Counted from the first letter of the stretch, positions 8,418 through 31,851 are shown. The stretch is DNA of 55,145 bases from an uncultured Mycoplasmatota bacterium (GCA_946413985.1 CAMKMS010000004.1:1-55145); one strand, 5' to 3'. Notes: a model not told the origin generated them from the letters alone. Program-made: numbers and translations.

Positions 8418-8607
8418 AAATTTAAATGAATTATTTAAAGAAATTAGAAATGAATGTTTGCAAATTATCGAAGTAAAGAATGTAGATATAGAAGAATTGT
8501 CTTTCAGAATGGGTATGAGTACAAATAATTTATATCATTTTTTACAAAAACGAAATAGTGATTTTTCTGTATATTTAAAACTATATGAAGTATTATTAGG
8601 ATGGTGA
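8410..8607 (+). CDS. Small XRE-like helix-turn-helix protein
   Basis: IEELSFRMGMSTNNLYHFLQK HTH pattern; RBS AAGGAGG; overlaps upstream ORF by 8 bp. Confidence 0.65.
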   Translation: MDKNLNELFKEIRNECLQIIEVKNVDIEELSFRMGMSTNNLYHFLQKRNSDFSVYLKLYEVLLGW

Positions 8608-10454
8608 ATTATATGAGTTTAGAAGAAATATTAAATGATAGATTAAAGCCATTATATAAAAAAGAAAAAAAGACTTCAAAAATACTAATGAGTAATAACA
8701 AGAAATTAAAAGAAGTTTTAGATGATATTGAACTTATTTCAATTTTTATAGAAGAAGTTTCTGTTATTGATAATATTAGATCAGTTGATACTAATGTTAT
8801 AACTGATTTATTAGTAAAATATAAAATAGTAGATGATTATAGCATAGAAGATGATTTAAATAGTATTAAAGTATTACTAAGTGGTATATATGATAAAAAA
8901 TTGAAAATGAGTTTAAATCAAGAACAAATAGATAAGTTAAAAGAATATATTTCATATGTATATAGACTACTAGATGAATTAAATGAAAGGAAATCTAGAT
9001 TAGAGGATTCAATATCATCAATACAAGATGATGATGACATGTATATAAGTGAAATTACATCTCTACAAGAATTGATTGAAAAAATAAAAGATAAAGATAA
9101 TAATGAACTATTAAATCAAGAAGACTTAGATATAATTAAGGAAATTATTAATGATTCAAGTGTTCTTCTTGAAGTTAAAAAAGAATTGTTAATTAGATTT
9201 ATTGAATATAATAATGCTAGAAAAAATGGTGAAACTAAAGAAAACAAAACTGATATCAATGAAGTAATATCCGTATTTAATGAATTTAATATAGACATGT
9301 CTAGTGTAATAAAGAAATATAAAAGTGAAGTAGAAGTTTATGCTAATATAAGTAATATAAGACAAATCTTATCTTTTATGATGAAAACAGATATTATAAA
9401 TAAATTTAATAATGTAGATTTATTAACAATTTGTTTGCATGGAAATTATGAATCTGTAAGTGATACTTATGATGAAATAAGTAAAAAAGATAGTAGTGAT
9501 TTTTACTATACAATTCCAAGTGCATGGGTTAATAATTTGGAATCAAAAAAGATAAAAAAGAAAAAATATAAAGGACAAGAAACTAAAGAAAAAAGTAGTA
9601 TTTCTTTAAAACAACTTTCTAGTATTATATCAAGAGAAGAAATTGATAAGAATATTAATTATTTACAAAATGAAGGCTTTGTCTTTGATATATATGATAT
9701 TGGATCTAGAAAGACTATTATGACAAGTCATTATAAATTAAAAGAAAATGTAAATGCTTTAAAGCAGTATGGTATTATAACAGAAGAAAATATTTCTAGA
9801 TTTAAGATATGGTTATTGTCTGAAAATCAAATAGTTGAAAAATTAGATAGATTTATTGAACTTGGACTACTTAGTGGACATAATTCTCCGGTTGAATTTG
9901 CAAATTATTTAAAAAGATATCCTGGTCAATTACATAATATGTTATATCCAACATATATGCTACTTTATAATGCTAAGCAAACATATAGTAATGAATCATA
10001 CTATACAACTATAGCATCAAATAAAAAAGGACAATTATCTGGATATTTAAATAGTGGTGTACTAGGAGATATATTATCAACACCTGATTCTATATTAGAA
10101 TATAAAAAAACAAATTTTATAGAACCAAATACATATATTGATAATTATGATTCTTACGAAGAAATAATTGATTCTAATTATGATGTTAAAATTAATAAAG
10201 ATATATTTAACAATCCTGAAATACAGAATTTAGAAAAGAATTATAGTATTGAAGGTAATCAATTTGTATATGTATTTGATGGTGTTGTTATTTCAAGATT
10301 AAAAGTACTTAGAAATTACTCATTAATAAATGATGGAAAAATAGAATCATTAATGTCATCAATTGTAAATGGCAGTTTCTTAACACAAGAATCAGTAAAT
10401 AAAATAGCAAAATGTATTAATTATTCTCTAGGAGGTGCACAATGGACTATTTAA
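8601..10454 (+). CDS. Hypothetical helical protein with mTERF-like repeat segment
   Basis: 617-aa ORF overlapping both neighbours; repeated KNINYLQNEGF / ENVNALKQYGI / EKLDRFIELGL helices. Confidence 0.65.
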   Translation: MVNYMSLEEILNDRLKPLYKKEKKTSKILMSNNKKLKEVLDDIELISIFIEEVSVIDNIRSVDTNVITDLLVKYKIVDDYSIEDDLNSIKVLLSGIYDKKLKMSLNQEQIDKLKEYISYVYRLLDELNERKSRLEDSISSIQDDDDMYISEITSLQELIEKIKDKDNNELLNQEDLDIIKEIINDSSVLLEVKKELLIRFIEYNNARKNGETKENKTDINEVISVFNEFNIDMSSVIKKYKSEVEVYANISNIRQILSFMMKTDIINKFNNVDLLTICLHGNYESVSDTYDEISKKDSSDFYYTIPSAWVNNLESKKIKKKKYKGQETKEKSSISLKQLSSIISREEIDKNINYLQNEGFVFDIYDIGSRKTIMTSHYKLKENVNALKQYGIITEENISRFKIWLLSENQIVEKLDRFIELGLLSGHNSPVEFANYLKRYPGQLHNMLYPTYMLLYNAKQTYSNESYYTTIASNKKGQLSGYLNSGVLGDILSTPDSILEYKKTNFIEPNTYIDNYDSYEEIIDSNYDVKINKDIFNNPEIQNLEKNYSIEGNQFVYVFDGVVISRLKVLRNYSLINDGKIESLMSSIVNGSFLTQESVNKIAKCINYSLGGAQWTI

Positions 10455-13751: not shown

Positions 13752-13802
13752 AAAAGCAAAAATAATTTATTATAATGATATATAGAATAGAGGTTGATTG
13801 TA

Positions 13803-14525
13803 ATGGATAGAAAAGGTTTTACTTTAGTTGAATTACTAGTTGTTATAGTTATTATTGCTGTATTAAGTGTAATAATTGTACCTAGTGTAATTAATATTAA
13901 TAAGAGTATTAATAAAAGATTATTAAGTGAAAAGATTGAAAATATTGAATCAAGTGCAATTCTATATGCTAATAATAATGAAGAAATATTTAATGGAACA
14001 GACGTAGTATATATATATGTTTATGAACTAGTTGATTCAAAATATATGACTATTGATATTGCTGCTGGAACAGATGCTTGTAAAGTAGCAACTGAAAAAT
14101 CAAGAATAGGTTGTGTAATTGATCCAACTGATAAAACTTCAATAAATAATAATTATGTTATCTTAAGAAAAGAAGGCGCTGGTGTAACAGCAACATATGT
14201 TGATACAACTGAATCTCCACAAGGAGTAGCAAATGAATCAGTTACTTTAGTAGATGCTGTATGTGCTGGATTTGCAAATGGAACATTTAAAGGTCAAGCT
14301 TATTCTGGAAATAGAATAGTTGATTGTACTTGTGATAAAGCAAAAGGAGCAACTAAATTATATGTTAAAAATACAGCAACAGAAGTTCAAGCTTGTTTAA
14401 TAGCTGGAGAGAATGTTAATAACTACTTAAAATATGGTGATACAAAGGCTAACTGGAGAGTTTTAGGAGTATATAATTTAGATGGAACTATTACTGCTAA
14501 AATGATTACTTCTGATCCAGTATAA
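13803..14525 (+). CDS. Type IV prepilin-like protein
   Basis: MDRKG^FTLVELLVVIVIIAVLSVIIVP class III signal/N-methylation motif with E5; Cys-containing globular domain. Confidence 0.85.
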   Translation: MDRKGFTLVELLVVIVIIAVLSVIIVPSVININKSINKRLLSEKIENIESSAILYANNNEEIFNGTDVVYIYVYELVDSKYMTIDIAAGTDACKVATEKSRIGCVIDPTDKTSINNNYVILRKEGAGVTATYVDTTESPQGVANESVTLVDAVCAGFANGTFKGQAYSGNRIVDCTCDKAKGATKLYVKNTATEVQACLIAGENVNNYLKYGDTKANWRVLGVYNLDGTITAKMITSDPV

Positions 14526-19076: not shown

Positions 19077-19080
19077 TACA

Positions 19081-19112
19081 AAAAAATAAAGAAAATATCT
19101 TTATTTTTTTTT
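19081..19112 (+). terminator. Intrinsic terminator after cysS
   Basis: AAAAAATAAAGA...TCTTTATTTTTT. Confidence 0.6.
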
Positions 19113-19160
19113 GATATTTGTTATAATTATATTTAGAATAGGAAGGATAGGTTTTTTAGT

Positions 19161-20918
19161 ATGCTAGGAAAAATATTAACAATTAGTAAAAATACTGCAA
19201 CTCTTGCTATTAATAAAGATGCAGGAGAAATAAATGATTTAATAAATTTACACGTAGTATTTGAAGATAATAATAAAAAGATATTAGGTGAAATAGATTC
19301 AATTAATCAAGATACAATAAATGTTACATTTTTGGGTGAACTTACCGAAAATGATTTTATTGGTGGTTTAATAAGAAAACCAAGTTTAAATGCAAATGTT
19401 AGAATTATTAATGAGCAGGAACTAGCTATTTTGACGGGAAATGAGAATGCTAGTATTCAACTTGGAGTATCACCTTTATATAATGATTTTCCTTTGAAGG
19501 TTAGTATCGATGAATTATTCTCAAACCATACTGCTATATTTGGTAATACTGGTAGTGGTAAAACATATGGTATTTGTAGAATAATACAAAATATTTTTCC
19601 AAATAGCAGTATTATTCCATATAAGGCAAATTTATTTATATTTGATTCTTATGGTGAATATATAAATGCATTTAAAGATTTAAGTAATAATAATCCTTAT
19701 TATTCTTTTAAAGTAATAACTACAAATAAAAGTAAACCTTATGAGAAATTAAATATTCCAGTGTGTTTACTTGATTTAGAAGATATATTAAATTTACTTG
19801 AGGCTACAAGTTTTTCTCAAATTGCAATGATTGAAACAGCTCTTACATATGTTCGTATGTTTGCAAGAAACGATAAAGAGGCAGCTGAATTTAAGAATCA
19901 TGTTCTTGCTAAAGCAATTATTTCAATAATGTATACTAATCAAACTTCTGCAAGAATAAGAGATCAGATTTTTGAAATATTAAATGAAACAAATACTCCA
20001 GAGTTATCATTAGATACTGAAGTACCTGGAATTGGATTTACTCGTAAATTTAGAAATTGTTTTGATATAGATAGTGAAGGAAGATTTGCAGAACATAAAA
20101 TAATATCAGATTATATTAAGACTTTTATAGATGATAATAGACATTGGAATTTTAATTCTGAGGGAGTTTATTATTCACTTCATGATTTAGAAGTTGCATT
20201 GAATTTCACACTTTATAGTGAAAGATATTTGCTTAATGAAGCAATGTATGATTCTGCAATGAGTTTAAAAGTAAAATTACATGATTTGACTAATCGTGGT
20301 AATGGAGAGTTCTTTAGTGCAAATGAATATATTACTATAGATGAATACATTAAGAGATTACAAATAAATGGTAATAAAAAAAGTCAAATTGTTAACTTTA
20401 ATTTAGAAGATGTTGATGATAGATTTGCAAGAAGTATAGTTAAAATATTTGGACGTATGTTTATGAAATTCACTAGAAGCTTATCTGATCGAGCAACATT
20501 TCCAATACATATGATATTAGAAGAAGCTCATAGATATGTTTTAGAAGGCGATGATAAAAAGTTATTTGGATATAATATATTTGAAAGAATAGCTAAAGAA
20601 GGTCGTAAATATGGATTAATTCTTGATTTAATTACACAAAGACCAACCGACTTAAATGAAAATGTTATATCACAATGTGCTAACTTTTTGATATTTAAAA
20701 TCAATCACCCAGCTGATCTTGAATATATCGCAAAAAGTGTTCCAAATATGAGTGAAGATATAGTAGAAAAACAAAAGACATTACAAGCAGGAACTTGTGT
20801 TGCTTTTGGTAGAATATTTAAAATACCAATGATTGCTAAGATGGAGAAAGCTGATCCACCACCAACAAGTTCAAACTGCGAAGTTTATAAAAACTGGATG
20901 GTACAATTAAAACAATAA
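19161..20918 (+). CDS. HerA/DUF87-family ATPase
   Basis: N-terminal HAS-barrel-like region, HTAIFGNTGSGKT, FDSYGEY, MILEEAH, IAKEGRKYG, ITQRP; upstream TGtTATAAT (19119-19127). Confidence 0.9.
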   Translation: MLGKILTISKNTATLAINKDAGEINDLINLHVVFEDNNKKILGEIDSINQDTINVTFLGELTENDFIGGLIRKPSLNANVRIINEQELAILTGNENASIQLGVSPLYNDFPLKVSIDELFSNHTAIFGNTGSGKTYGICRIIQNIFPNSSIIPYKANLFIFDSYGEYINAFKDLSNNNPYYSFKVITTNKSKPYEKLNIPVCLLDLEDILNLLEATSFSQIAMIETALTYVRMFARNDKEAAEFKNHVLAKAIISIMYTNQTSARIRDQIFEILNETNTPELSLDTEVPGIGFTRKFRNCFDIDSEGRFAEHKIISDYIKTFIDDNRHWNFNSEGVYYSLHDLEVALNFTLYSERYLLNEAMYDSAMSLKVKLHDLTNRGNGEFFSANEYITIDEYIKRLQINGNKKSQIVNFNLEDVDDRFARSIVKIFGRMFMKFTRSLSDRATFPIHMILEEAHRYVLEGDDKKLFGYNIFERIAKEGRKYGLILDLITQRPTDLNENVISQCANFLIFKINHPADLEYIAKSVPNMSEDIVEKQKTLQAGTCVAFGRIFKIPMIAKMEKADPPPTSSNCEVYKNWMVQLKQ

Positions 20919-20950
20919 TTTTAAAAATAGCTTAGAAAGGAGGATAATCT

Positions 20951-23356
20951 ATGTATGATTTAGGTGAATACTTTAAAATAGATTTAGTAAAGAGTAAAAC
21001 ACCATCAACATTTGTTTATAGAGGTAAAAACTATAGAATTAGTATTTTATCTGATACTCTAATTAGATTAGAATATAGTGAGTCTGGATCATTTAATGAT
21101 TATCCTACTTTTTTTGCTCAAAATAGAAGTTTTGGTCAACCTAAAGTTGAAGTAGTAGAGGATGAAAGTATTCTAATTATTAGAAATGATAATTTTGTAT
21201 TAGAATATAAGAAAAATAAAAATTTTGTTGGAAGTAAACTAATGCCTGAACAGAATTTAAAAGTAACTATAACAAATACTGAAAAAATATGGTATTTCAA
21301 TCATCCTGAAGCAAGAAACTTTAAAGGAACAGCATTTAGTTTAGATAATATGAATGGAAGTGTGGATCTTGACAAAGGCTTATTTTCTTTAGATGGATTT
21401 ACATCAATTGATGATGAAAGAACACCAATTTTAGATAAGAGTGGAAATATAATTGCTCCAAATTATATGAATATTGATACATATTTATTTGTATATAATT
21501 CAAACTTTGGAATAGGACTTAGAGACTATTTTAACTTAACAGGTTTACCATTATTACCTCCTAGATATACTTTTGGAGTATGGTGGAATAAAAATGAAGA
21601 GTATAGCGAAGAAAAGGTATTAGACCTTGTTAATTCATTTAAGAGATATAAAATACCATTCTCTGTATTATTATTAGGTGAATATGCTAGAAATAAATAT
21701 AGTTCTACAAATACTAGTTTTTCATTTAACAAAAATATTTTTCCTAATCCAAAGGCTTTGTCATCATTCTTAAATAAAAATGGAATTCATTTAGGACTAA
21801 ATATTAAGACGGATGGTATTATAAGTACAGAAGAAGAACATCATGATGATTTTGTTAAAATATATAGTGCTGATGCAGATAAAAATATTCCAATAAATGT
21901 ATATAATCCTAATTTAATGGATGGTTTTTTAAAAGGCATTATTAATCCATTATTAAATACAGGTGTAGATGTATTATGGATAGATGATGATAATAAAAAT
22001 AATAATTTAAGGAATTTTGCTTCAAATTATTATTTGTATAAAAATTTTCTTTCTAACGTTGAAAAGAGAGGATTAATTTTATCACGTAATTTTGGTATTG
22101 CACCTCATAGATATTCTATTCTTTATTCTGGAAATACATTTATTAATTGGAAAACACTAAGATATTTGCCATTTTTTAATTCAACTGCATCTAATATAGG
22201 CGTTTCTTATTGGAGTCATGATATTGGTGGATTTAAAGGTGGCATTGAAGATGGCGAACTATATATGAGATATGTTCAATTAGGTGTTTATAGTCCAATA
22301 TTAAGACTTTCAAGTGATGCTGGAAAATATTATAAAAGAGAGCCATGGAAATGGGATGCTGAAACATTTAATATTACTCATGAATATTTAACATTAAGAC
22401 ATAGATTGATTCCATATTTGTATAGTGAAGCAAAAAAATATTCATCTTTTGGTTCACCTATGATACAGCCATTATATTACAAATATCCCGAAACATATGA
22501 TGAACCTCTTTATAAAAATGAGTATTATTTTGGAAGTGAATTATTTATTTCACCAATCGTAACACCAAAAGATAGTATTATGAGTAGAGTTGTTCATAGA
22601 TTATTTTTACCAAATGGAGTTTGGTATGATTTTAAGACTGGTAAAAAGTTTACTGGTGGACGAAGATATGTTACTTTCTATAGAGATGAAGATTATCCAG
22701 TATTTGCTAAAACTGGAGCTATTATTCCAATGGCAGTATTAGATCCAGATAATATTAATGATGTATCTTCTCCTAAAACTCTTGAAATTCATATTTTCCC
22801 AGGAAGAAGTAATACATATAAACTATATGAAGATGATGGTTATTCATCTAAATATAAAGATGGTTTAAGTTATACAACAGAAATTAATTATTATTATAAA
22901 GAAAATGACTTTTCTGTTTCTTTAGAACCAAAAGATGGTCAAAGAGAAGTAGTTCCTGAAAATAGAAATTATATAATAAGATTTAGAAATACAAAGTATA
23001 CTAAAGGTGTACAAGTATTTAGTAATGAAATAAATGTTCCATTCAAGAGCTATATTGAAGATAATGATTTTGTTATTACTTTTGATAATATACCTACTGA
23101 TGCTAAAATATATGTTTATTGTAAGGGAAATGATATTGAAATAGACGCTTCTCGTGCAATAAATGATGATTTAGAAGGTATTATTACTGATTTAAAAATA
23201 TCAACAGAATTAAAGATTTTAATTGATTCAATATTATTTAGTGATAAACCAATTAAAGAAAAAAGAATTCAAATTAGAAAATTAAGAAGAAAAGGTCTTG
23301 ATACAATATTTATTAAAATGTTTATAAAACTATTAGAATATATTGCAGAAGTATAA
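20951..23356 (+). CDS. GH31 (GH31_u1-like) glycoside hydrolase homolog, probably catalytically inactive
   Basis: PPRYTFGVWW, GVDVLWIDD, WSHDIGGF, REPW, LRHRLIPYLYS, LYEDDG; acid/base motif reads YSGNT rather than FSGDT. Confidence 0.85.
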   Translation: MYDLGEYFKIDLVKSKTPSTFVYRGKNYRISILSDTLIRLEYSESGSFNDYPTFFAQNRSFGQPKVEVVEDESILIIRNDNFVLEYKKNKNFVGSKLMPEQNLKVTITNTEKIWYFNHPEARNFKGTAFSLDNMNGSVDLDKGLFSLDGFTSIDDERTPILDKSGNIIAPNYMNIDTYLFVYNSNFGIGLRDYFNLTGLPLLPPRYTFGVWWNKNEEYSEEKVLDLVNSFKRYKIPFSVLLLGEYARNKYSSTNTSFSFNKNIFPNPKALSSFLNKNGIHLGLNIKTDGIISTEEEHHDDFVKIYSADADKNIPINVYNPNLMDGFLKGIINPLLNTGVDVLWIDDDNKNNNLRNFASNYYLYKNFLSNVEKRGLILSRNFGIAPHRYSILYSGNTFINWKTLRYLPFFNSTASNIGVSYWSHDIGGFKGGIEDGELYMRYVQLGVYSPILRLSSDAGKYYKREPWKWDAETFNITHEYLTLRHRLIPYLYSEAKKYSSFGSPMIQPLYYKYPETYDEPLYKNEYYFGSELFISPIVTPKDSIMSRVVHRLFLPNGVWYDFKTGKKFTGGRRYVTFYRDEDYPVFAKTGAIIPMAVLDPDNINDVSSPKTLEIHIFPGRSNTYKLYEDDGYSSKYKDGLSYTTEINYYYKENDFSVSLEPKDGQREVVPENRNYIIRFRNTKYTKGVQVFSNEINVPFKSYIEDNDFVITFDNIPTDAKIYVYCKGNDIEIDASRAINDDLEGIITDLKISTELKILIDSILFSDKPIKEKRIQIRKLRRKGLDTIFIKMFIKLLEYIAEV

Positions 23357-23387
23357 AAGCATCAATTATTAGAGTTGGTGCTTTTTT
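23355..23387 (+). terminator. Intrinsic terminator closing the HerA-GH31 operon
   Basis: AAAAGCATCAATT...AGTTGGTGCTTTT plus T-run. Confidence 0.75.
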
Positions 23388-23457
23388 ATAAAAAAAATCT
23401 TTATTAAAGAGTATAAATGTGTTAAAATATTAATGTATATTAAAATAGGTGAAGAGA

Positions 23458-26217
23458 ATGAAAAAAATAATTAAATTATTATTTTTGTTAATGTTAATAT
23501 TACCGATATTTATTAGTGCTGATACTTATAAAAATGCAGTTAAGAATGCTAATGAATTAATTAATCAAGAATATTATATAAATACTTATGAAAAATATAT
23601 ATTACAAGGAAAAAAGATTAAGTATGAATTTAGTAATGGTAAGAATAAATATAATTCATTATTTGTTAAGGGTGGATTTATTAGTAAGGATGAATATGAA
23701 TTAACAAAGGTAAAAGGACTTTCATATTTATTAATAAATGATAGCTTTTGGACATTATCAAAAGATAAGAAAAATGTATATGTTATAACAACAGATGATA
23801 TAGATATTGCTAAAGATCCTAATAGTGACTATTTTTCTAGGGTAACAGAATATGTAAGACCTAAAACAGTTGTTAGTGGAAGTGGAACTCAAAATGATCC
23901 TTGGCAATTTGATCCTATGTATAAAGTTTCTGCTATAGTTAATCCAGATTACGCAACAATAGAAAGTGGAAATAATGAATATGTTAAAGGAAATTGTGAA
24001 ACTGCAGAATGTAGTGCAAATATAAAGATTATTGGAAAAGGTGGATATAGATATATTTCTAATGATTGTAATGGAGTATATGATATTAAAACAAAAACTT
24101 TAAATGTTAAAACTGTAAAAAAGAATTTAGAATGTAATGTTGAATTCGGTTATGGTCTTTTTACAATAAACATTACTGATGCTAAACCAGATACTTTTTA
24201 CGCAATATATGGCGATAATTATTATTCAGATATTGATAATAAAACAGTTTTAAATACATTAAGTTCAGTTACACCTAAGAAAGGTTATACTTTTAAAGGA
24301 TTTATATATGAAGATCTTGAAATAGTAGATAGTAAGAAGAATTTGGTTAAATCATCGTTAAATAATATAACTAAAGATTTAACAATACTTCCTACTTGGG
24401 AAGCTAATAAATATACAGTTTCATATGATTGTAATGGTGGATTTGATTCTCCAAAGAATCAGACTGTTACATTTGAAGGACCATTTACTATAACTGATGA
24501 ATTGTGTAAAAGAGAGGGTTATATTCAAGTTGGATGGAATTCATCAAGTGATGGTGATGGATTCTCTTGGAATAAACAAAATAGAACAAATTGGTCATGG
24601 AGTTTAGATAATAATGTGACTCTTTATGCAATATGGAAAAAATGTAGTGCAGGTACTTATTCAGGTGCTAGTGACAATAAATGTAATGATTGCGAAGCTG
24701 GAACGTATTCTTCAAGTGGAGCTGGAAAATGTTCTCTTTGCCCAAGTGGATATACTAGTGAAGCTGGTTCTGATAAAATAGACAAATGCTTTATTAAAGT
24801 CGAAGCGGGAAAACGTTTAATAGAAGCAAAAACAAATAAAATTGTTGAATGTCCAGATGGTCAGTATAGTGAAGAGCATTCAGTTACTTATGGACGTGTT
24901 AGTTCATGTACTTCTTGTCCAGTTGGTTATGATGATGGAACTAAACTTGAAGATAAAACTAGCCAGAAGAAGTGTTTAAGAAAAATATCAGCAGGATATT
25001 ATATTTCTGCTCCATATGCAGCTGGTAATACTATTTGCGAAAATGGAAAATACAAAGAAGCTCATCAATTACATTATGGAGAAACAAGTAGTTGTGAGTC
25101 ATGTCCAAATGGATATAGAGATGGATCTAAAATAGAAAACAAAGTATCAGAAAATAAGTGTTTAAGAAAAGTTACTGCAGGATATTATATAGCTAGTTCA
25201 AAATCAATTAACAATACATTGTGTCCAACAGGACAATATAGTATAACTCATTCAATCCTATATGGAGAAACAAGTAAATGTAGTGAATGCCCTAATGGAT
25301 ATCAAGATGGAAGGAAACTTGAAAATAAAGTATCTAAAGAAAGTTGCTTAAAAAATGTTCCAGCAGGAAGTTATGTAGCAAGTGAAAAATCTGAAGAAAG
25401 TAAAGTTTGCCCTAATGGTTTCTATAAAGAATCTCATCAATTAACATATGGACAAACTAGTAAATGTACTGTTTGTCCAGAAGGATATAGAGATGGTGCT
25501 ACAGTATCAAATAAAACAGCAAAAAATAAATGTTTAAAAAATGTTAGTAGTGGATATTATATTTCTAAAGCTAATTCTAATAGTAGTACTTTATGTCCAA
25601 ATGGATATTATAAAGAAAAACATAGTGTAACATATGGATCTGTGAGTACTTGCTTACAATGTCCAGAAGGATATAGAGATGGTAAGAGTGCTACAAGTAA
25701 ATCTAGTCAAAGCTCTTGTACTAGAATTGTTGAAGCTGGATATTATATAGCTAAAGCTAATGATAAAACAAATTCATTGTGTGATAATGGAAGCTATAAA
25801 GGAACACATAATGTAACTTATGGAAGTACTAGTTCTTGTAATATTTGTCCAGATGGATATAGAGATGGAACATCTATTGACAGTAAGACTGCTGAAAATA
25901 AATGTGTAAGAAGTATTCCTGCTGGATATTATGTTATGGGTGCAAAGGCAACGAATGACACAGAATGTCCAGAGGGACATTATAAAACTGCTCATGTAGT
26001 AACATATGGAAGTATTAGTAGATGCTCAGTATGTCCTAGTGGATATAGGAATGGAACAACTGTTTCTAATAAAGTTTCTGAAAGTTCATGTGTTAGAAAT
26101 GTACCACAAAATTACTATGTAGAAAAGAGCAAAGATGATAAAAATACTGCATGTCCAAAGGGAACGACAAAGAAAGCTCATACAGTATTATATGGTCAAA
26201 CGAGTACTTGTAATTAA
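23458..26217 (+). CDS. Secreted protein with InlB-B/Flg_new-like repeat and tandem Cys-rich repeats
   Basis: Signal peptide MKKIIKLLFLLMLILPIFISA; YTVSYDCNGG...EGYIQVGWN...VTLYAIWK; CxxGxY Cys-rich repeats. Confidence 0.85.
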   Translation: MKKIIKLLFLLMLILPIFISADTYKNAVKNANELINQEYYINTYEKYILQGKKIKYEFSNGKNKYNSLFVKGGFISKDEYELTKVKGLSYLLINDSFWTLSKDKKNVYVITTDDIDIAKDPNSDYFSRVTEYVRPKTVVSGSGTQNDPWQFDPMYKVSAIVNPDYATIESGNNEYVKGNCETAECSANIKIIGKGGYRYISNDCNGVYDIKTKTLNVKTVKKNLECNVEFGYGLFTINITDAKPDTFYAIYGDNYYSDIDNKTVLNTLSSVTPKKGYTFKGFIYEDLEIVDSKKNLVKSSLNNITKDLTILPTWEANKYTVSYDCNGGFDSPKNQTVTFEGPFTITDELCKREGYIQVGWNSSSDGDGFSWNKQNRTNWSWSLDNNVTLYAIWKKCSAGTYSGASDNKCNDCEAGTYSSSGAGKCSLCPSGYTSEAGSDKIDKCFIKVEAGKRLIEAKTNKIVECPDGQYSEEHSVTYGRVSSCTSCPVGYDDGTKLEDKTSQKKCLRKISAGYYISAPYAAGNTICENGKYKEAHQLHYGETSSCESCPNGYRDGSKIENKVSENKCLRKVTAGYYIASSKSINNTLCPTGQYSITHSILYGETSKCSECPNGYQDGRKLENKVSKESCLKNVPAGSYVASEKSEESKVCPNGFYKESHQLTYGQTSKCTVCPEGYRDGATVSNKTAKNKCLKNVSSGYYISKANSNSSTLCPNGYYKEKHSVTYGSVSTCLQCPEGYRDGKSATSKSSQSSCTRIVEAGYYIAKANDKTNSLCDNGSYKGTHNVTYGSTSSCNICPDGYRDGTSIDSKTAENKCVRSIPAGYYVMGAKATNDTECPEGHYKTAHVVTYGSISRCSVCPSGYRNGTTVSNKVSESSCVRNVPQNYYVEKSKDDKNTACPKGTTKKAHTVLYGQTSTCN
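24850..26214 (+). repeat. Intragenic tandem repeat, 186 bp / 62 aa, 7 full units plus a partial one
   Basis: Units start at 24850, 25036 ... 26152; consensus CxxGxYxxxHxxxYGxxSxCxxCPxGYxDGxxxxxKxxxxxCxxxVxAGYY. Confidence 0.95.
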
Positions 26218-29706: not shown

Positions 29707-31851
29707 ATGAATTTTGGAAGTTATAGTGAATTAGAAAAAGAAATAGATCGTTTAAAAAATAATCTTGAGAAATCATTAGAATATAAAAAAGTTGCTGAAA
29801 ATTCTTCTAGTCTACATTTTGATGATAAAGCTAAGTCTTTGAATCGTTTAGAAGGTGAAATTAATTCTTTAGAAAATCAAATTAAATCATTAGAAGAAAT
29901 ACAAAAAGCTTATAATGAATATATTGATAATCTAAAAGAAATACAAGATTTATATAATAGTATAGAAAAAGTAGATAATTTAGAAGAAAAATTAAATTCA
30001 TTAAGAGACAAAGTTAGTAAAGCAAAATCATTATTGCCTGAATCATTATTAAAAGAAGCTATGCAAAAGATTCAAGAGTATATTAAAACTCGAAATAATA
30101 ATGTAGTTAAGCCAAAAATTGAATTTCATGAAAATGAATTTCAAGTAAGCTTTAAAGAAGAAATAGACAAATTGGTCTCACAAATGAACAACATTCTTAA
30201 AGATAAATCTGTAGAGGAACTTCGTTATGGAGATTTAATAAATTCTAAAAATGATTTACTTAGATTAATTCCTGTAAAAGAAGAATTGTTCTCACGAATA
30301 AAAGCTTCTCAAAAACTTATTGATAAAGCAACGTATGAAGAATTGATGAGTCAGAATGTATTAATAACTAAAAAAATTGATGAATCAATGAAGAGTATTG
30401 ATGCAAATAAAAGAGAAAGAGATGCAATAAAAAAATTAATTAATAAAGAATTAAAAGATGATAAAAAGAAAATTAGTATTTTAGATAAAAAGAGAAATGA
30501 ATTTGAAGATAAAGTCAATAATCCTGAAAAGTACAAGTTATCTCAAGAAGAAGTTGATAAGTTAATATTTGCTTTAAAGGTAATTAGTGATGATAGAAAT
30601 ATGCTTATTGGTAGGGTTCGTGAGTTAAATGTAAATTTAAATAGGGTAAATGATGGAATAGCAATAAAAAAAGAATTTAAAGACAGTTTATTAGTAGAAC
30701 CTAAAACAAAATCAGATTTTAAGGCTTTTGAATTATCTAACCCAAAACCAAAACCTAAAGCTAAACCAGAGCCATCTAAAACTCAAAATGGAAATTCATC
30801 ATCATCTTCATCAACAAAGCCAGCACCAGATAATAAAGCTCCTGTAAAGGGTTCAGAAGAAAAAAGAAAAACTGGTGAAAAAGAAATTCCTAAAGCAGTA
30901 AATCCTAATTCAATAGAAGATTTAATCAAAAATGGAAAATTACCAAGATTTTTAGATTTTGATAATTTAAAGAAAATATTTTATGCATTGAATATTCCAG
31001 TAAAAGATAAAAATACTGTTTTGAATCCTGAACAAATTGATAGATTACAAAATGATCATGAGATTCAAGTATTATTGTTGTGTGAAAAAGTATATGATCG
31101 AAACGAAAAGAAAGTTTCAGAATATGATTTATTAATTAGTAAATATGAGTCTATATTAAAAGACAAGATGAAAAACCATGATCATATTAAGAATTTTAGT
31201 CCTGCTTATATTCAAAAAGTACAAAATTTATTAGGTAAATTAAAGTATGAAAGAGCTATGTATATTGAAAGAAATCAAAGACTTAAAGCTAATCTAAAGA
31301 TTGGTAATCTTGATTTAGAATATAGTGGAAAGAATGTTCTAGCGAATATTGATGATAAAAATAATGCAATGCTTTTAGATACTGTTGCTTCAGTTAAAAA
31401 TGATAAATTGAGATCTAAATATCAAAAATTAGATGGATTAAGAGAGAAAAAATATAAAAGCAAGTTTAGAAATAAAATTCAAGAAAAAAGAATTCAAAAA
31501 GTTCTAAAAAGAATAGAAGAATTAAAGTCTAAAAAGGCAGCAATAGCATCTAAACAAACTCAAATTATTAATTCAAATACTGATTTATACATAAAGAAAG
31601 TTACTGAAAGATTACAAAAATACTTAAATAGGCAAAATAGTATAGAACGTAGTGTTGATAAGATTAATGATATTGGTGAAAGAATTGAGATGAATCATCA
31701 AGAAAGAAAAGATTTATTAGATGATTATAGAAAAGAACCAAATTTTTTAGATAAAATGAGTATTGCTTTTGAAGATGGTAGATTAGAAAGAGAAACTGAT
31801 AGGTTAGAAACTCAAAGAGATATCGAAAATTTAATTGGTAGATTAAGATAA
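29707..31851 (+). CDS. Long coiled-coil hypothetical protein with Pro/Lys/Ser-rich linker
   Basis: Heptad-rich; PKPKPKAKPEPSKTQNGNSSSSSSTKPAP central linker. Confidence 0.75.
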   Translation: MNFGSYSELEKEIDRLKNNLEKSLEYKKVAENSSSLHFDDKAKSLNRLEGEINSLENQIKSLEEIQKAYNEYIDNLKEIQDLYNSIEKVDNLEEKLNSLRDKVSKAKSLLPESLLKEAMQKIQEYIKTRNNNVVKPKIEFHENEFQVSFKEEIDKLVSQMNNILKDKSVEELRYGDLINSKNDLLRLIPVKEELFSRIKASQKLIDKATYEELMSQNVLITKKIDESMKSIDANKRERDAIKKLINKELKDDKKKISILDKKRNEFEDKVNNPEKYKLSQEEVDKLIFALKVISDDRNMLIGRVRELNVNLNRVNDGIAIKKEFKDSLLVEPKTKSDFKAFELSNPKPKPKAKPEPSKTQNGNSSSSSSTKPAPDNKAPVKGSEEKRKTGEKEIPKAVNPNSIEDLIKNGKLPRFLDFDNLKKIFYALNIPVKDKNTVLNPEQIDRLQNDHEIQVLLLCEKVYDRNEKKVSEYDLLISKYESILKDKMKNHDHIKNFSPAYIQKVQNLLGKLKYERAMYIERNQRLKANLKIGNLDLEYSGKNVLANIDDKNNAMLLDTVASVKNDKLRSKYQKLDGLREKKYKSKFRNKIQEKRIQKVLKRIEELKSKKAAIASKQTQIINSNTDLYIKKVTERLQKYLNRQNSIERSVDKINDIGERIEMNHQERKDLLDDYRKEPNFLDKMSIAFEDGRLERETDRLETQRDIENLIGRLR

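What the first reader, a model, noticed from the sequence alone, without database searches (positions are those of the whole stretch)
19161..23387. HerA ATPase in a two-gene operon with a GH31 pseudo-enzyme
Seen: promoter, herA-like gene, 32-bp gap with AGGAGG, GH31 homolog, terminator. HerA motifs are intact. The GH31 is full-length but its active site appears systematically altered relative to the GH31_u1 pattern as I recall it: WWSRYW>WWNKNE, IDMDWH>LLGEYA, WIDWQQG>WIDDDNK (nucleophile Asp345 kept), FSGDT>YSGNT (acid/base Asp>Asn395, codon AAT 22133-22135), RLHS>RLSS. It has no signal peptide, and no sugar transporter or regulator is nearby. Known: HerA hexamers normally work with an adjacent partner (NurA in repair; Sir2 or DUF4297 in antiphage defence), and a characterised GH31_u1 enzyme is hexameric via a C-terminal helical domain, which seems retained here. 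Inference: an undescribed HerA system whose partner is a non-catalytic GH31 ring or glyco-sensor, for example for glycosylated DNA.
Basis: partly seen in the sequence, partly recalled or inferred. Interest (0 to 1): 0.8.

Follow-up and report, generated by a model that had tools for sequence, protein, structure and literature searches.

The report
HerA ATPase beside a dead GH31 glycosidase
A small-genome gut bacterium co-transcribes a HerA-type motor ATPase with a full-length but catalytically dead GH31 glycosidase; both are old, nearly universal genes of its bacterial family that sit side by side only in this genus and one other, so this is not a phage-defence system.

Summary
HerA-like gene 19161-20918, a 32-bp gap with AGGAGG, GH31 gene 20951-23356 and hairpin terminators before and after the pair are all present.

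The GH31 is a real pseudo-enzyme. The acid/base column varies across orthologues, yet the protein is full length, folds confidently (pLDDT 93) and has dN/dS like cysS.

It is no island gene. It occurs in 259 of 299 sampled genomes (109 of 127 genera, G000 included) of one family of 0.6-1.8 Mb gut Bacilli. HerA1 occurs in 242 of 299.

HerA1>GH31 adjacency was found in this genus (35 of 36 genomes) and one other. In 39 of 40 further genera no HerA lies within 8.5 kb. There the GH31 precedes a small membrane protein and an aminoacyl-tRNA synthetase. HerA1 sits in the SRP operon or beside dnaA.

No SIR2, DUF4297 or NurA partner was found. A functional HerA1-GH31 link remains possible but unproven.

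The parts
19080..19112 (+). Hairpin plus U-run after cysS; it separates cysS from the herA-GH31 unit
   Evidence: -8.8 kcal/mol, z -4.5, 0 of 200 shuffles fold as well. Sequence seen.
19111..19139 (+). Promoter-like TTGATA-17-TAGAAT upstream of herA (weak evidence)
   Evidence: 10 of 12 match. Such sites are no commoner than in shuffles (116 found against 121 expected).
19161..20918 (+). HerA1: HerA/FtsK-type P-loop ATPase, 585 aa, motifs intact
   Evidence: Walker A G128-K134; Walker B E454/E455; R458, Q493 and R494 invariant in 33 sequences. dN/dS 0.08-0.13.
20919..20950 (+). 32-bp intergenic gap with AGGAGG at 20938-20943; no hairpin
   Evidence: z +0.6
20951..23356 (+). GH31_u1-derived pseudo-glycosidase, 801 aa
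   Evidence: AF2 model pLDDT 93.1. Foldseek best match 7wj9, TM 0.81/0.88. dN/dS 0.13-0.26.
21983..21985 (+). Codon of D345, the retained counterpart of nucleophile Asp341 of LlGH31_u1
   Evidence: alignment. Asp in 30 of 30 genus orthologues and in 47 of 51 orthologues from other genera.
22133..22135 (+). AAT codon of N395, in the column of acid/base Asp394 of LlGH31_u1
   Evidence: the same column is Ala in the D394A mutant 7wjc. The column reads K13 N7 E5 H3 D1 Q1 in the genus. It reads E21 K11 Q8 N6 R2 D1 V1 S1 in other genera.
23159..23350 (+). C-terminal four-helix domain (residues 737-800). Strongly conserved up to the last residue in the pseudo-enzyme clade.
   Evidence: helices 737-747, 752-762, 768-781, 785-800. 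(motif conserved in 32 pseudo-clade rows, variable in 5 canonical GH31_u1 rows).
23355..23392 (+). Intrinsic terminator-like hairpin plus U-run after the GH31 gene
   Evidence: -13 kcal/mol, z -4.8. It was missed by the pattern scan.

Best explanation
The locus is a genuine two-gene transcription unit.

Gene 1 (HerA1) is a HerA/FtsK-type hexameric P-loop ATPase with intact catalytic motifs.

Gene 2 is a well-folded descendant of cytoplasmic GH31_u1 alpha-glucosidases. It has lost the general acid/base Asp, the beta3 Asp residues and the -1 subsite His. It therefore most likely no longer hydrolyses glycosides.

Both genes are vertically inherited, near-core genes of one family of reduced-genome gut Bacilli. 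Titles of relatives' records name uncultured Bacilli, 'Tenericutes' and Mollicutes MAGs and Clostridium sp. CAG:524 and CAG:1000. The side-by-side arrangement is a gene-order state of this genus and one other. It is neither a conserved module nor an anti-phage system.

My reading (inferred) has three parts. The pseudo-GH31 acts as a non-catalytic, probably GH31_u1-style oligomeric scaffold or binding protein, and its constrained surface is the C-terminal four-helix domain. HerA1 is a housekeeping translocase that arose as a family-specific paralogue of an older HerA2. Here the two are simply co-expressed; whether they also touch is open.
For: Pseudo-enzyme:
- The alignment to 7wj9/7wjc puts N395 at the acid/base column, removes IDMDWH and turns RLHS into RLSS. 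The catalytic roles come from PMC9061262 (passages read).
- The acid/base column is free to vary: K13 N7 E5 H3 D1 Q1 in 30 genus orthologues and E21 K11 Q8 N6 R2 D1 V1 S1 in 51 orthologues from other genera.
- More than 100 canonical representatives all keep GFSGD, RxH and WWSRY.

Still functional:
- All 30 genus ORFs taken as loci are full length.
- dN/dS is 0.13-0.26, against 0.13-0.19 for cysS.
- The AF2 model has pLDDT 93.1 and pTM 0.93, and Foldseek gives TM 0.81/0.88 to 7wj9.
- The C-terminal helical domain is highly conserved in the pseudo clade only.

Core and vertical:
- The GH31 scores E<=1e-30 in 259 of 299 family genomes. By genus the count is 109 of 127, G000 included.
- HerA1 scores E<=1e-155 in 242 of 299 genomes. 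By genus the count is 103 of 127, G000 included.

Adjacency is lineage-specific:
- 35 of 36 genomes of the genus have the pair abutting.
- Only 1 of 40 other genera (L098, g126) has any HerA within 8.5 kb of the GH31.

Housekeeping contexts:
- The GH31 is followed by a ~120-aa membrane protein in 36 of 55 loci. A LeuS/IleS-like synthetase follows that protein in most of these loci.
- HerA1 lies in ftsY-ylxM-HerA1-(ffh) in 9 of 20 genera, and beside dnaA in 5 of 20, 4 of them with rnpA upstream.

No classical partner: NurA, SIR2_2 and Cap4_nuclease/DUF4297 were not found in the 77%-complete genome. The GH31 has no PADLOC hit.
Against: - Co-transcription has been kept, with gaps of about 20-190 bp, across a genus whose synonymous sites are near saturation. 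Selection for co-expression could cause that.
- The GH31 also lies next to, or three genes from, the other paralogue HerA2 in 3 of 12 loci of a different lineage (L072 directly; L070; L074 as GH31-c2-aaRS-HerA2).
- The two genes co-occur. My hand tally of the lists gives both 236, GH31 only 23, HerA1 only 6 and neither 34. That tally is confounded by phylogeny and by the arbitrary 1e-155 cut.
- Five 'GH31 only' genomes carry a single HerA of 41-43% identity. Of five 'neither' genomes, three carry such a HerA and two carry none.
- Glu at the acid/base column in 21 of 51 orthologues from other genera might still support some chemistry there.
- No function was demonstrated for either protein.
Confidence: 0.6

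Rival explanations
1. HerA1 and the pseudo-GH31 form one machine. A GH31_u1-type hexamer docks on the HerA1 hexamer, for instance through the conserved C-terminal helical domain, as a regulator or substrate adaptor. Gene order is merely unconstrained in most genera.
For: - The operon has no internal terminator and has been kept throughout the genus and in g126.
- In another lineage the GH31 is adjacent or close to the HerA2 paralogue.
- HerA1 is rarely present without the GH31: 6 of 242 by my hand tally.
- Both are innovations of the same family. HerA1 forms a family-only clade, and outside the family only HerA2-type genes and no pseudo-GH31 were seen.
- LlGH31_u1 is hexameric, like HerA.
- The C-terminal domain is conserved to the last residue.
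Against: - 39 of 40 other genera keep the two genes more than 8.5 kb apart or on different contigs.
- The adjacency to HerA1 can be explained by a single translocation, and the HerA2 case by local deletions in a GH31-c2-aaRS-HerA2 stretch.
- No HerA-GH31 fusion was seen among 4 longer HerA homologues.
- Five sampled genomes that have the GH31 but no HerA1 at the cut carry only one HerA, of 41-43% identity.
- Co-occurrence of two rarely lost core genes is expected from shared descent alone.
Confidence: 0.25
2. The pair is a new HerA-based anti-phage defence system with a GH31-like sensor or effector, for example for glucosylated phage DNA.
For: - HerA1 scores 1.5e-99 against the PADLOC HerA model PDLC04102.
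- Its best solved relatives are HerA chains, some deposited only as 'ATP-binding protein', at E 1.8e-32 to 3.6e-25. That these belong to defence complexes is my recollection.
- The layout is a two-gene operon with a non-enzymatic partner.
Against: - Both genes are near-core in a family of reduced genomes.
- Their neighbours are housekeeping genes: cysS, truA, nusB, xseA, the SRP operon, dnaA and an aaRS.
- NCBIfam HerA_antiphage scores 139.7 and 137.1 lie far below the cut-offs of 800 and 850.
- The GH31 has no PADLOC hit.
- The pairing is absent in 39 of 40 other genera.
- There are no mobile-element or island features within 10 kb.
Confidence: 0.03
3. The GH31 is still an enzyme. It would be a glycosidase, transglycosylase or lyase that uses the retained Asp345/Asp346 and another residue as acid/base on an unusual substrate.
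For: - The nucleophile Asp is kept in 30 of 30 genus orthologues and in 47 of 51 from other genera. The WSHDIGG Asp424 is kept in 30 of 30 and 46 of 51.
- Glu occupies the acid/base column in 21 of 51 orthologues outside the genus.
- Purifying selection is strong.
Against: - The acid/base column holds Lys, Asn, Gln, His or Arg in most orthologues. In this genus it is Lys in 13 of 30.
- In this genus the beta3 IDMDWH motif is replaced, with a 6-residue deletion. A few orthologues in other genera keep its Asp residues.
- The -1 subsite His is kept in only 6 of 51 orthologues.
- More divergent clade members lose the nucleophile too.
- No sugar uptake or catabolic genes lie nearby.
Confidence: 0.07

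Closest known systems
Lactococcus lactis GH31_u1 alpha-1,3-glucosidase (LlGH31_u1; PDB 7WJ9, 7WJC; PMC9061262)
   Same: It is the best sequence hit (E 5.8e-106 over residues 14-640) and the best structural match (TM 0.81/0.88). It shares the domain order, the lack of a signal peptide, the retained nucleophile Asp and a C-terminal four-helix domain. In the enzyme that domain contributes to hexamer formation.
   Different: Acid/base Asp394 is Asn here and varies among orthologues. IDMDWH, WWSRYY and RLHS are replaced. There is no sugar-utilisation neighbourhood, unlike the ABC transporter and LacI genes described around the L. lactis gene. The C-terminal domain carries a clade-specific, highly conserved motif. 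Oligomeric state was not tested.
HerA-based anti-phage systems (SIR2-HerA, DUF4297-HerA)
   Same: There is a HerA-family ATPase with intact motifs next to a second, larger gene. HerA1 scores against the PADLOC and NCBIfam anti-phage HerA profiles. Its best PDB relatives are HerA chains. Their assignment to these defence systems is recalled.
   Different: There is no SIR2 or DUF4297 partner. Scores lie far below the NCBIfam equivalog cut-offs. The gene is near-core and sits in housekeeping contexts rather than islands.
NurA-HerA DNA end-resection complex of archaea and some bacteria
   Same: Both involve a HerA-type hexameric ATPase. HerA1 gives weak profile matches to the repair HerA families NF040937 and NF040819.
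   Different: No NurA (PF09376) was found in the genome, while the same search rang in 7 of 14 control genomes. The scores of 120 and 100 bits lie far below the cut-offs of 800 and 970.
Non-catalytic glycoside-hydrolase-fold proteins, e.g. GH18 chitinase-like lectins (recalled, not searched)
   Same: A glycosidase fold is kept under selection after the catalytic acid is lost.
   Different: Those proteins are secreted eukaryotic lectins that still bind glycans. This one is a cytoplasmic bacterial protein with much of its -1 subsite gone. I found no paper on a GH31 pseudo-enzyme: 0 papers hold 'pseudoenzyme' + 'glycoside hydrolase' + 'GH31'.

Membership tests
GH31 / GH31_u1 subgroup | GH31 domain architecture and fold (N-domain, TIM-barrel A-domain, proximal and distal C-domains) | tested here: met
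   PF01055 1.7e-47, PF21365 6.7e-17 and PF17137 3.6e-13. AF2 pLDDT 93.1. Foldseek 7wj9 TM 0.81/0.88 over 798 columns.
GH31 / GH31_u1 subgroup | Catalytic nucleophile Asp (Asp341 of LlGH31_u1) | tested here: met
   D345 aligns with it. It is Asp in 30 of 30 genus orthologues and in 47 of 51 from other genera.
GH31 / GH31_u1 subgroup | Catalytic acid/base Asp (Asp394 of LlGH31_u1, in GFSGD) | tested here: not met
   The residue is N395. The column varies among orthologues, while the canonical representatives keep GFSGD.
GH31 / GH31_u1 subgroup | Conserved -1 subsite residues (beta3 IDMDWH Asp residues, RLHS His, WWSRY) | tested here: not met
   They read LLG plus a deletion, RLSS and WWNKNE. The His column reads S23 A12 G10 H6 in 51 orthologues from other genera.
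GH31 / GH31_u1 subgroup | C-terminal four-helix domain and hexamer | tested here: inconclusive
   Four helices at 737-800 appear in the model, and the domain is conserved. The oligomeric state was not modelled or measured.
HerA/FtsK ATPases (Pfam DUF87/HerA) | Walker A, Walker B and arginine/sensor residues of the RecA-like core | tested here: met
   PF01935 2.4e-20. G128, G131, G133, K134, E454, E455, R458, Q493 and R494 are invariant in 33 sequences.
HerA/FtsK ATPases (Pfam DUF87/HerA) | N-terminal HAS-barrel and hexameric ring | not tested
   Only profile and sequence coverage from residues 44-58 onward is available. No HerA1 model was made.
HerA-based anti-phage defence (SIR2-HerA, DUF4297-HerA) | Adjacent SIR2 or DUF4297/Cap4-type effector | tested here: not met
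   The neighbour is a GH31. PF13289 and PF14130 were not found in the 77%-complete genome. The PF14130 search rang in none of the 14 control genomes either, so that blank is weak.
HerA-based anti-phage defence (SIR2-HerA, DUF4297-HerA) | Equivalog-level match to anti-phage HerA | tested here: not met
   NF042943 scores 139.7 bits against a cut-off of 800. NF042944 scores 137.1 against 850.
HerA-based anti-phage defence (SIR2-HerA, DUF4297-HerA) | Patchy, island-like distribution | tested here: not met
   HerA1 occurs in 242 of 299 and the GH31 in 259 of 299 family genomes. The neighbours are housekeeping genes.
NurA-HerA repair complex | NurA nuclease encoded with HerA | tested here: not met
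   PF09376 was not found in G000. The same search rang in 7 of 14 control genomes.

The most novel reading that the evidence does not exclude
A family of reduced-genome gut Bacilli has turned a cytoplasmic GH31_u1 glucosidase hexamer into a non-catalytic ring. This ring would serve as the dedicated partner or regulator of a family-specific HerA paralogue (HerA1), docking through its invariant C-terminal helical domain. That would be a housekeeping HerA machine with a dead-glycosidase adaptor, a type of partner not seen for any HerA so far.
Probability: 0.2. Interest if true: 0.75.

Novelty: new variant of a known kind. Interest (0 to 1): 0.45.

Why it matters
Dead enzymes that stay under strong selection usually mark an unrecognised second function. 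Here a GH31 fold without its catalytic acid has been kept as a near-universal gene in more than 100 genera whose genomes have shrunk to about 1 Mb. That argues it does something important in these abundant, uncultured gut bacteria.

The same family also keeps two HerA-type motors as core genes without any known HerA partner. This widens the picture of HerA beyond archaeal DNA repair and phage defence.

The result also carries a caution. A tidy two-gene operon that includes a HerA is not, on its own, evidence of a defence system.

Tried and rejected
Complex prediction: full-length GH31 with HerA1 residues 1-112, both given as alignments. The verdict was 'no answer' (score 0.00, mark 0.32, controls not run). 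This is no evidence either way. Full-length HerA1 with the GH31 C-terminal domain could not be tried because the cap is one job.

RNA evidence: no RNA holder was listed for 19100-23400. One run of unknown kind held 0.41 of the words.

Fusion search: 4 HerA homologues of 1025-2925 aa reached E<=1e-20, and all carry only PF01935. The two best (P0272, P0273) show no similarity to the GH31 (E 0.42 and 0.56), and their extra parts look low-complexity. The tool warns that finding none is weak evidence.

The 1202-aa GH31 frame in L128: its N-terminal extension is an N/Q-rich frame starting at GTG, with no domain. I judged it uninformative.

ESM Atlas for HerA1: only generic DUF87/FtsK clusters came back.

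Literature: 'HerA' + 'glycoside hydrolase' + 'anti-phage' found 1 paper, whose title and abstract start (listing only) concern a Tenacibaculum species and its phage. 'RF39' + 'HerA' found 16 papers; of the 8 listed, none concerns HerA proteins by title or abstract start. 'pseudoenzyme' + 'glycoside hydrolase' + 'GH31' found 0. They might show whether this clade was noticed.

Phyletic co-occurrence: the 2x2 tally was made by eye from the genome lists and may hold slips. No species tree was built, so the tally cannot separate functional linkage from shared descent.

HerA tree: the careful search did not finish, so the quick IQ-TREE tree (SH-aLRT only) was used.

dN/dS: the method was NG86 and dS of 0.64-0.97 may be near saturation.

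G007, same genus: both genes carry many stop codons. The genome is a single 1.5-Mb contig rated 45% complete. I took the stops for likely assembly errors rather than decay and did not check.

Full report
1. What is in the sequence

The window has about 25% GC. It is contig C4 of a 1.19-Mb genome in 51 contigs, rated 77% complete.

Two + strand ORFs lie at 19161-20918 (585 aa, P0001) and 20951-23356 (801 aa, P0002). They are separated by 32 bp, with AGGAGG 7 nt before the second ATG.

A hairpin plus U-run follows cysS (19080-19112; -8.8 kcal/mol, z -4.5). A stronger one follows the GH31 stop (23355-23392; -13 kcal/mol, z -4.8). The gap between the two genes does not fold.

A promoter-like site lies at 19111-19139. 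Such sites are no commoner than in shuffled sequence in this AT-rich DNA. Transcription itself could not be checked, because no RNA holder was listed.

2. The two proteins

P0001 is a HerA/FtsK-type ATPase.
- Pfam DUF87/HerA scores 2.4e-20 and PADLOC HerA PDLC04102 scores 1.5e-99.
- Solved relatives are HerA chains, at E 1.8e-32 to 8.2e-07.
- Walker A, Walker B and the Arg/Gln residues are invariant in an alignment of 33 relatives.
- It is far below the NCBIfam equivalog cut-offs for both anti-phage and repair HerA.

P0002 has the three GH31 Pfam domains. Its best solved relative by sequence is the L. lactis GH31_u1 alpha-1,3-glucosidase 7wj9 (5.8e-106). That is also the best match by fold: TM 0.81/0.88, using an AF2 model with pLDDT 93.1.

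N395 falls in the column that is Ala in the D394A mutant 7wjc. The paper on that enzyme names Asp341 and Asp394 as nucleophile and acid/base. It also describes a hexamer helped by a C-terminal four-helix domain (passages read). The model here has four C-terminal helices, at 737-800.

3. Is it a pseudo-enzyme?

I aligned 150 representatives of 50%-identity clusters from a library of 1.84 billion proteins.
- More than 100 canonical relatives all keep WWSRY, the beta3 Asp, GFSGD and RxH.
- About 20 clusters, the nearest to P0002 (38-46% identity), have lost them.

The acid/base column varies.
- In 30 orthologues of the genus it reads K13 N7 E5 H3 D1 Q1. D345, D346 and WSHDIGG are kept in 30 of 30.
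- In 51 orthologues from other genera it reads E21 K11 Q8 N6 R2 D1 V1 S1.
- In the same 51, the -1 subsite His column reads S23 A12 G10 H6, and the nucleophile is Asp in 47.

A catalytic residue that drifts to Lys, Gln or Arg is not catalytic. Yet the ORFs are intact. dN/dS (0.13-0.26) is like that of cysS (0.13-0.19). The C-terminal helical domain carries a motif conserved up to the last residue in the pseudo clade, while it is variable in five canonical sequences.

I conclude with high confidence that this is a selected, non-hydrolytic GH31_u1 derivative. The Glu seen in many other genera leaves a small chance of residual chemistry there.

4. Is the pairing conserved?

Within the genus it is.
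- The GH31 was found in 35 of 36 genomes and HerA1 abuts it in each. The 36th genome (G005, 72% complete) shows neither gene.
- HerA1 lies directly upstream in 38 loci whose GH31 is at least 66% identical. These overlap the genus set and are not independent.

Beyond the genus it is not.
- The GH31 orthologue occurs in 259 of 299 sampled genomes of the family, and HerA1 (E<=1e-155) in 242 of 299. By genus the counts are 109 and 103 of 127, G000 included.
- I cut out 8.5 kb on each side of the GH31 in 40 genomes from 40 other genera. Only one (L098, genus g126) has any HerA there, directly upstream as in the window.
- In 12 loci with 46-52% identical GH31s, none has HerA upstream. Three have the other paralogue, HerA2, downstream. 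In L072 it follows directly. In L070 it lies after a 728-aa ORF. In L074 the order is GH31-c2-aaRS-HerA2.

A quick tree separates a family-only HerA1 clade (27 rows) from a HerA2 clade (6 rows). The HerA2 clade also holds the single HerA of two genomes outside the family.

5. What the genes normally sit next to

- In 36 of 55 loci the GH31 is followed by a ~120-aa protein with an N-terminal hydrophobic stretch. A LeuS/IleS-like aminoacyl-tRNA synthetase follows that protein in most of these loci. The upstream neighbour varies.
- In 9 of 20 other genera HerA1 lies in ftsY-(small protein)-ylxM-HerA1, often followed by ffh.
- In 5 of 20 it lies just upstream of dnaA-dnaN, in 4 of them with rnpA on the other side.
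- Identities were checked by Pfam for one example of each arrangement. The rest rest on BLAST clustering.
- HerA2 in the window's genome follows valS.
- All these contexts are housekeeping. Within 10 kb of the pair the window holds ackA, a DHH protein, a GTPase, ECF transporter genes, truA, cysS, nusB, xseA, SpoIVB, mgtE and uppS.
- NurA, SIR2_2 and Cap4_nuclease/DUF4297 were not found in the genome.

6. Reading

The defence-system idea fails on three counts: distribution, context and partner type.

It does not: the catalytic decay is family-wide and predates the adjacency.

What remains is a lineage-specific operon of two family-core genes. I think independent functions with shared expression are the most likely reading (0.6).

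A true HerA1-GH31 partnership keeps about 0.25, for four reasons.
- The operon has been kept for a long time.
- The GH31 has twice ended up near a HerA paralogue.
- HerA1 is rarely present without the GH31: both 236, GH31 only 23, HerA1 only 6, neither 34. This is my hand tally, and phylogeny and the score cut confound it.
- Both proteins come from hexamer-forming families.

No fusion was found. The single complex-prediction job gave no answer (see Tried and rejected).

7. Novelty

I found nothing in print on a GH31 pseudo-enzyme or on HerA with a glycosidase-fold neighbour (these were text searches of an open-access library only).

A conserved dead GH31 as a near-core gene, and two core HerA paralogues in roughly 1-Mb genomes, are new variants of known kinds. 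They are moderately interesting. The stronger claim of a new HerA system is not supported.

The order name RF39 for these CAG-type genomes is recalled from GTDB and comes from no call.

Noticed in passing
G000 contig C13 (L031 6921-8669): A second HerA paralogue (HerA2, about 40% identical to HerA1) lies directly after valS. A HerA2-type gene occurs in every genome of the genus. It is the only HerA in two genomes outside the family (G037, G042).
   Followed up: partly
L136-L138, L146, L147, L150-L153 (other genera): HerA1 is inserted in the SRP operon (ftsY-small protein-ylxM-HerA1-ffh). In L139, L140, L145 and L148 it lies between rnpA and dnaA, at the presumed replication origin region.
   Followed up: partly
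L136 5202-7781 (860 aa); also 700-900-aa frames in genera g36, g46, g48 and g75; P0272, P0273: Some HerA1/HerA2 orthologues carry C-terminal extensions of 150-800 residues with no Pfam domain. In P0272 and P0273 the extensions look low-complexity (P/N/Q-rich).
   Followed up: partly
L040, L047, L063, L096-L135 (downstream of the GH31): A ~120-aa protein with an N-terminal hydrophobic helix nearly always precedes a LeuS/IleS-like synthetase gene. It directly follows the pseudo-GH31 in 36 of 55 loci. It is absent downstream of the GH31 in the window.
   Followed up: no
window 23449-26217 (+): A 922-aa ORF with Listeria-Bacteroides repeat (Flg_new) and Ephrin_rec_like matches, probably a surface protein. 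It replaces the small-protein/aaRS pair found downstream of the GH31 in other species of the genus. It is 68% identical in L034.
   Followed up: no
window 13794-14525 (+): A 243-aa ORF with a prepilin-type N-terminal methylation motif (PF07963), directly upstream of the ECF transporter genes.
   Followed up: no
G007:C1:1500788-1505054 (same genus): Both HerA1 and the GH31 are broken by many stop codons. The genome is a single 1.5-Mb contig rated 45% complete. This looks like assembly indel error rather than gene decay.
   Followed up: no
L128 7169-10777: A GH31 orthologue lies in a 1202-aa frame whose first ~400 residues are N/Q-rich low-complexity sequence starting at GTG. It is unclear whether this part is translated.
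   Followed up: partly
window 8601-10454, 29707-31851 (+): Two large ORFs (617 and 714 aa) have no Pfam match at E<=1e-5.
   Followed up: no
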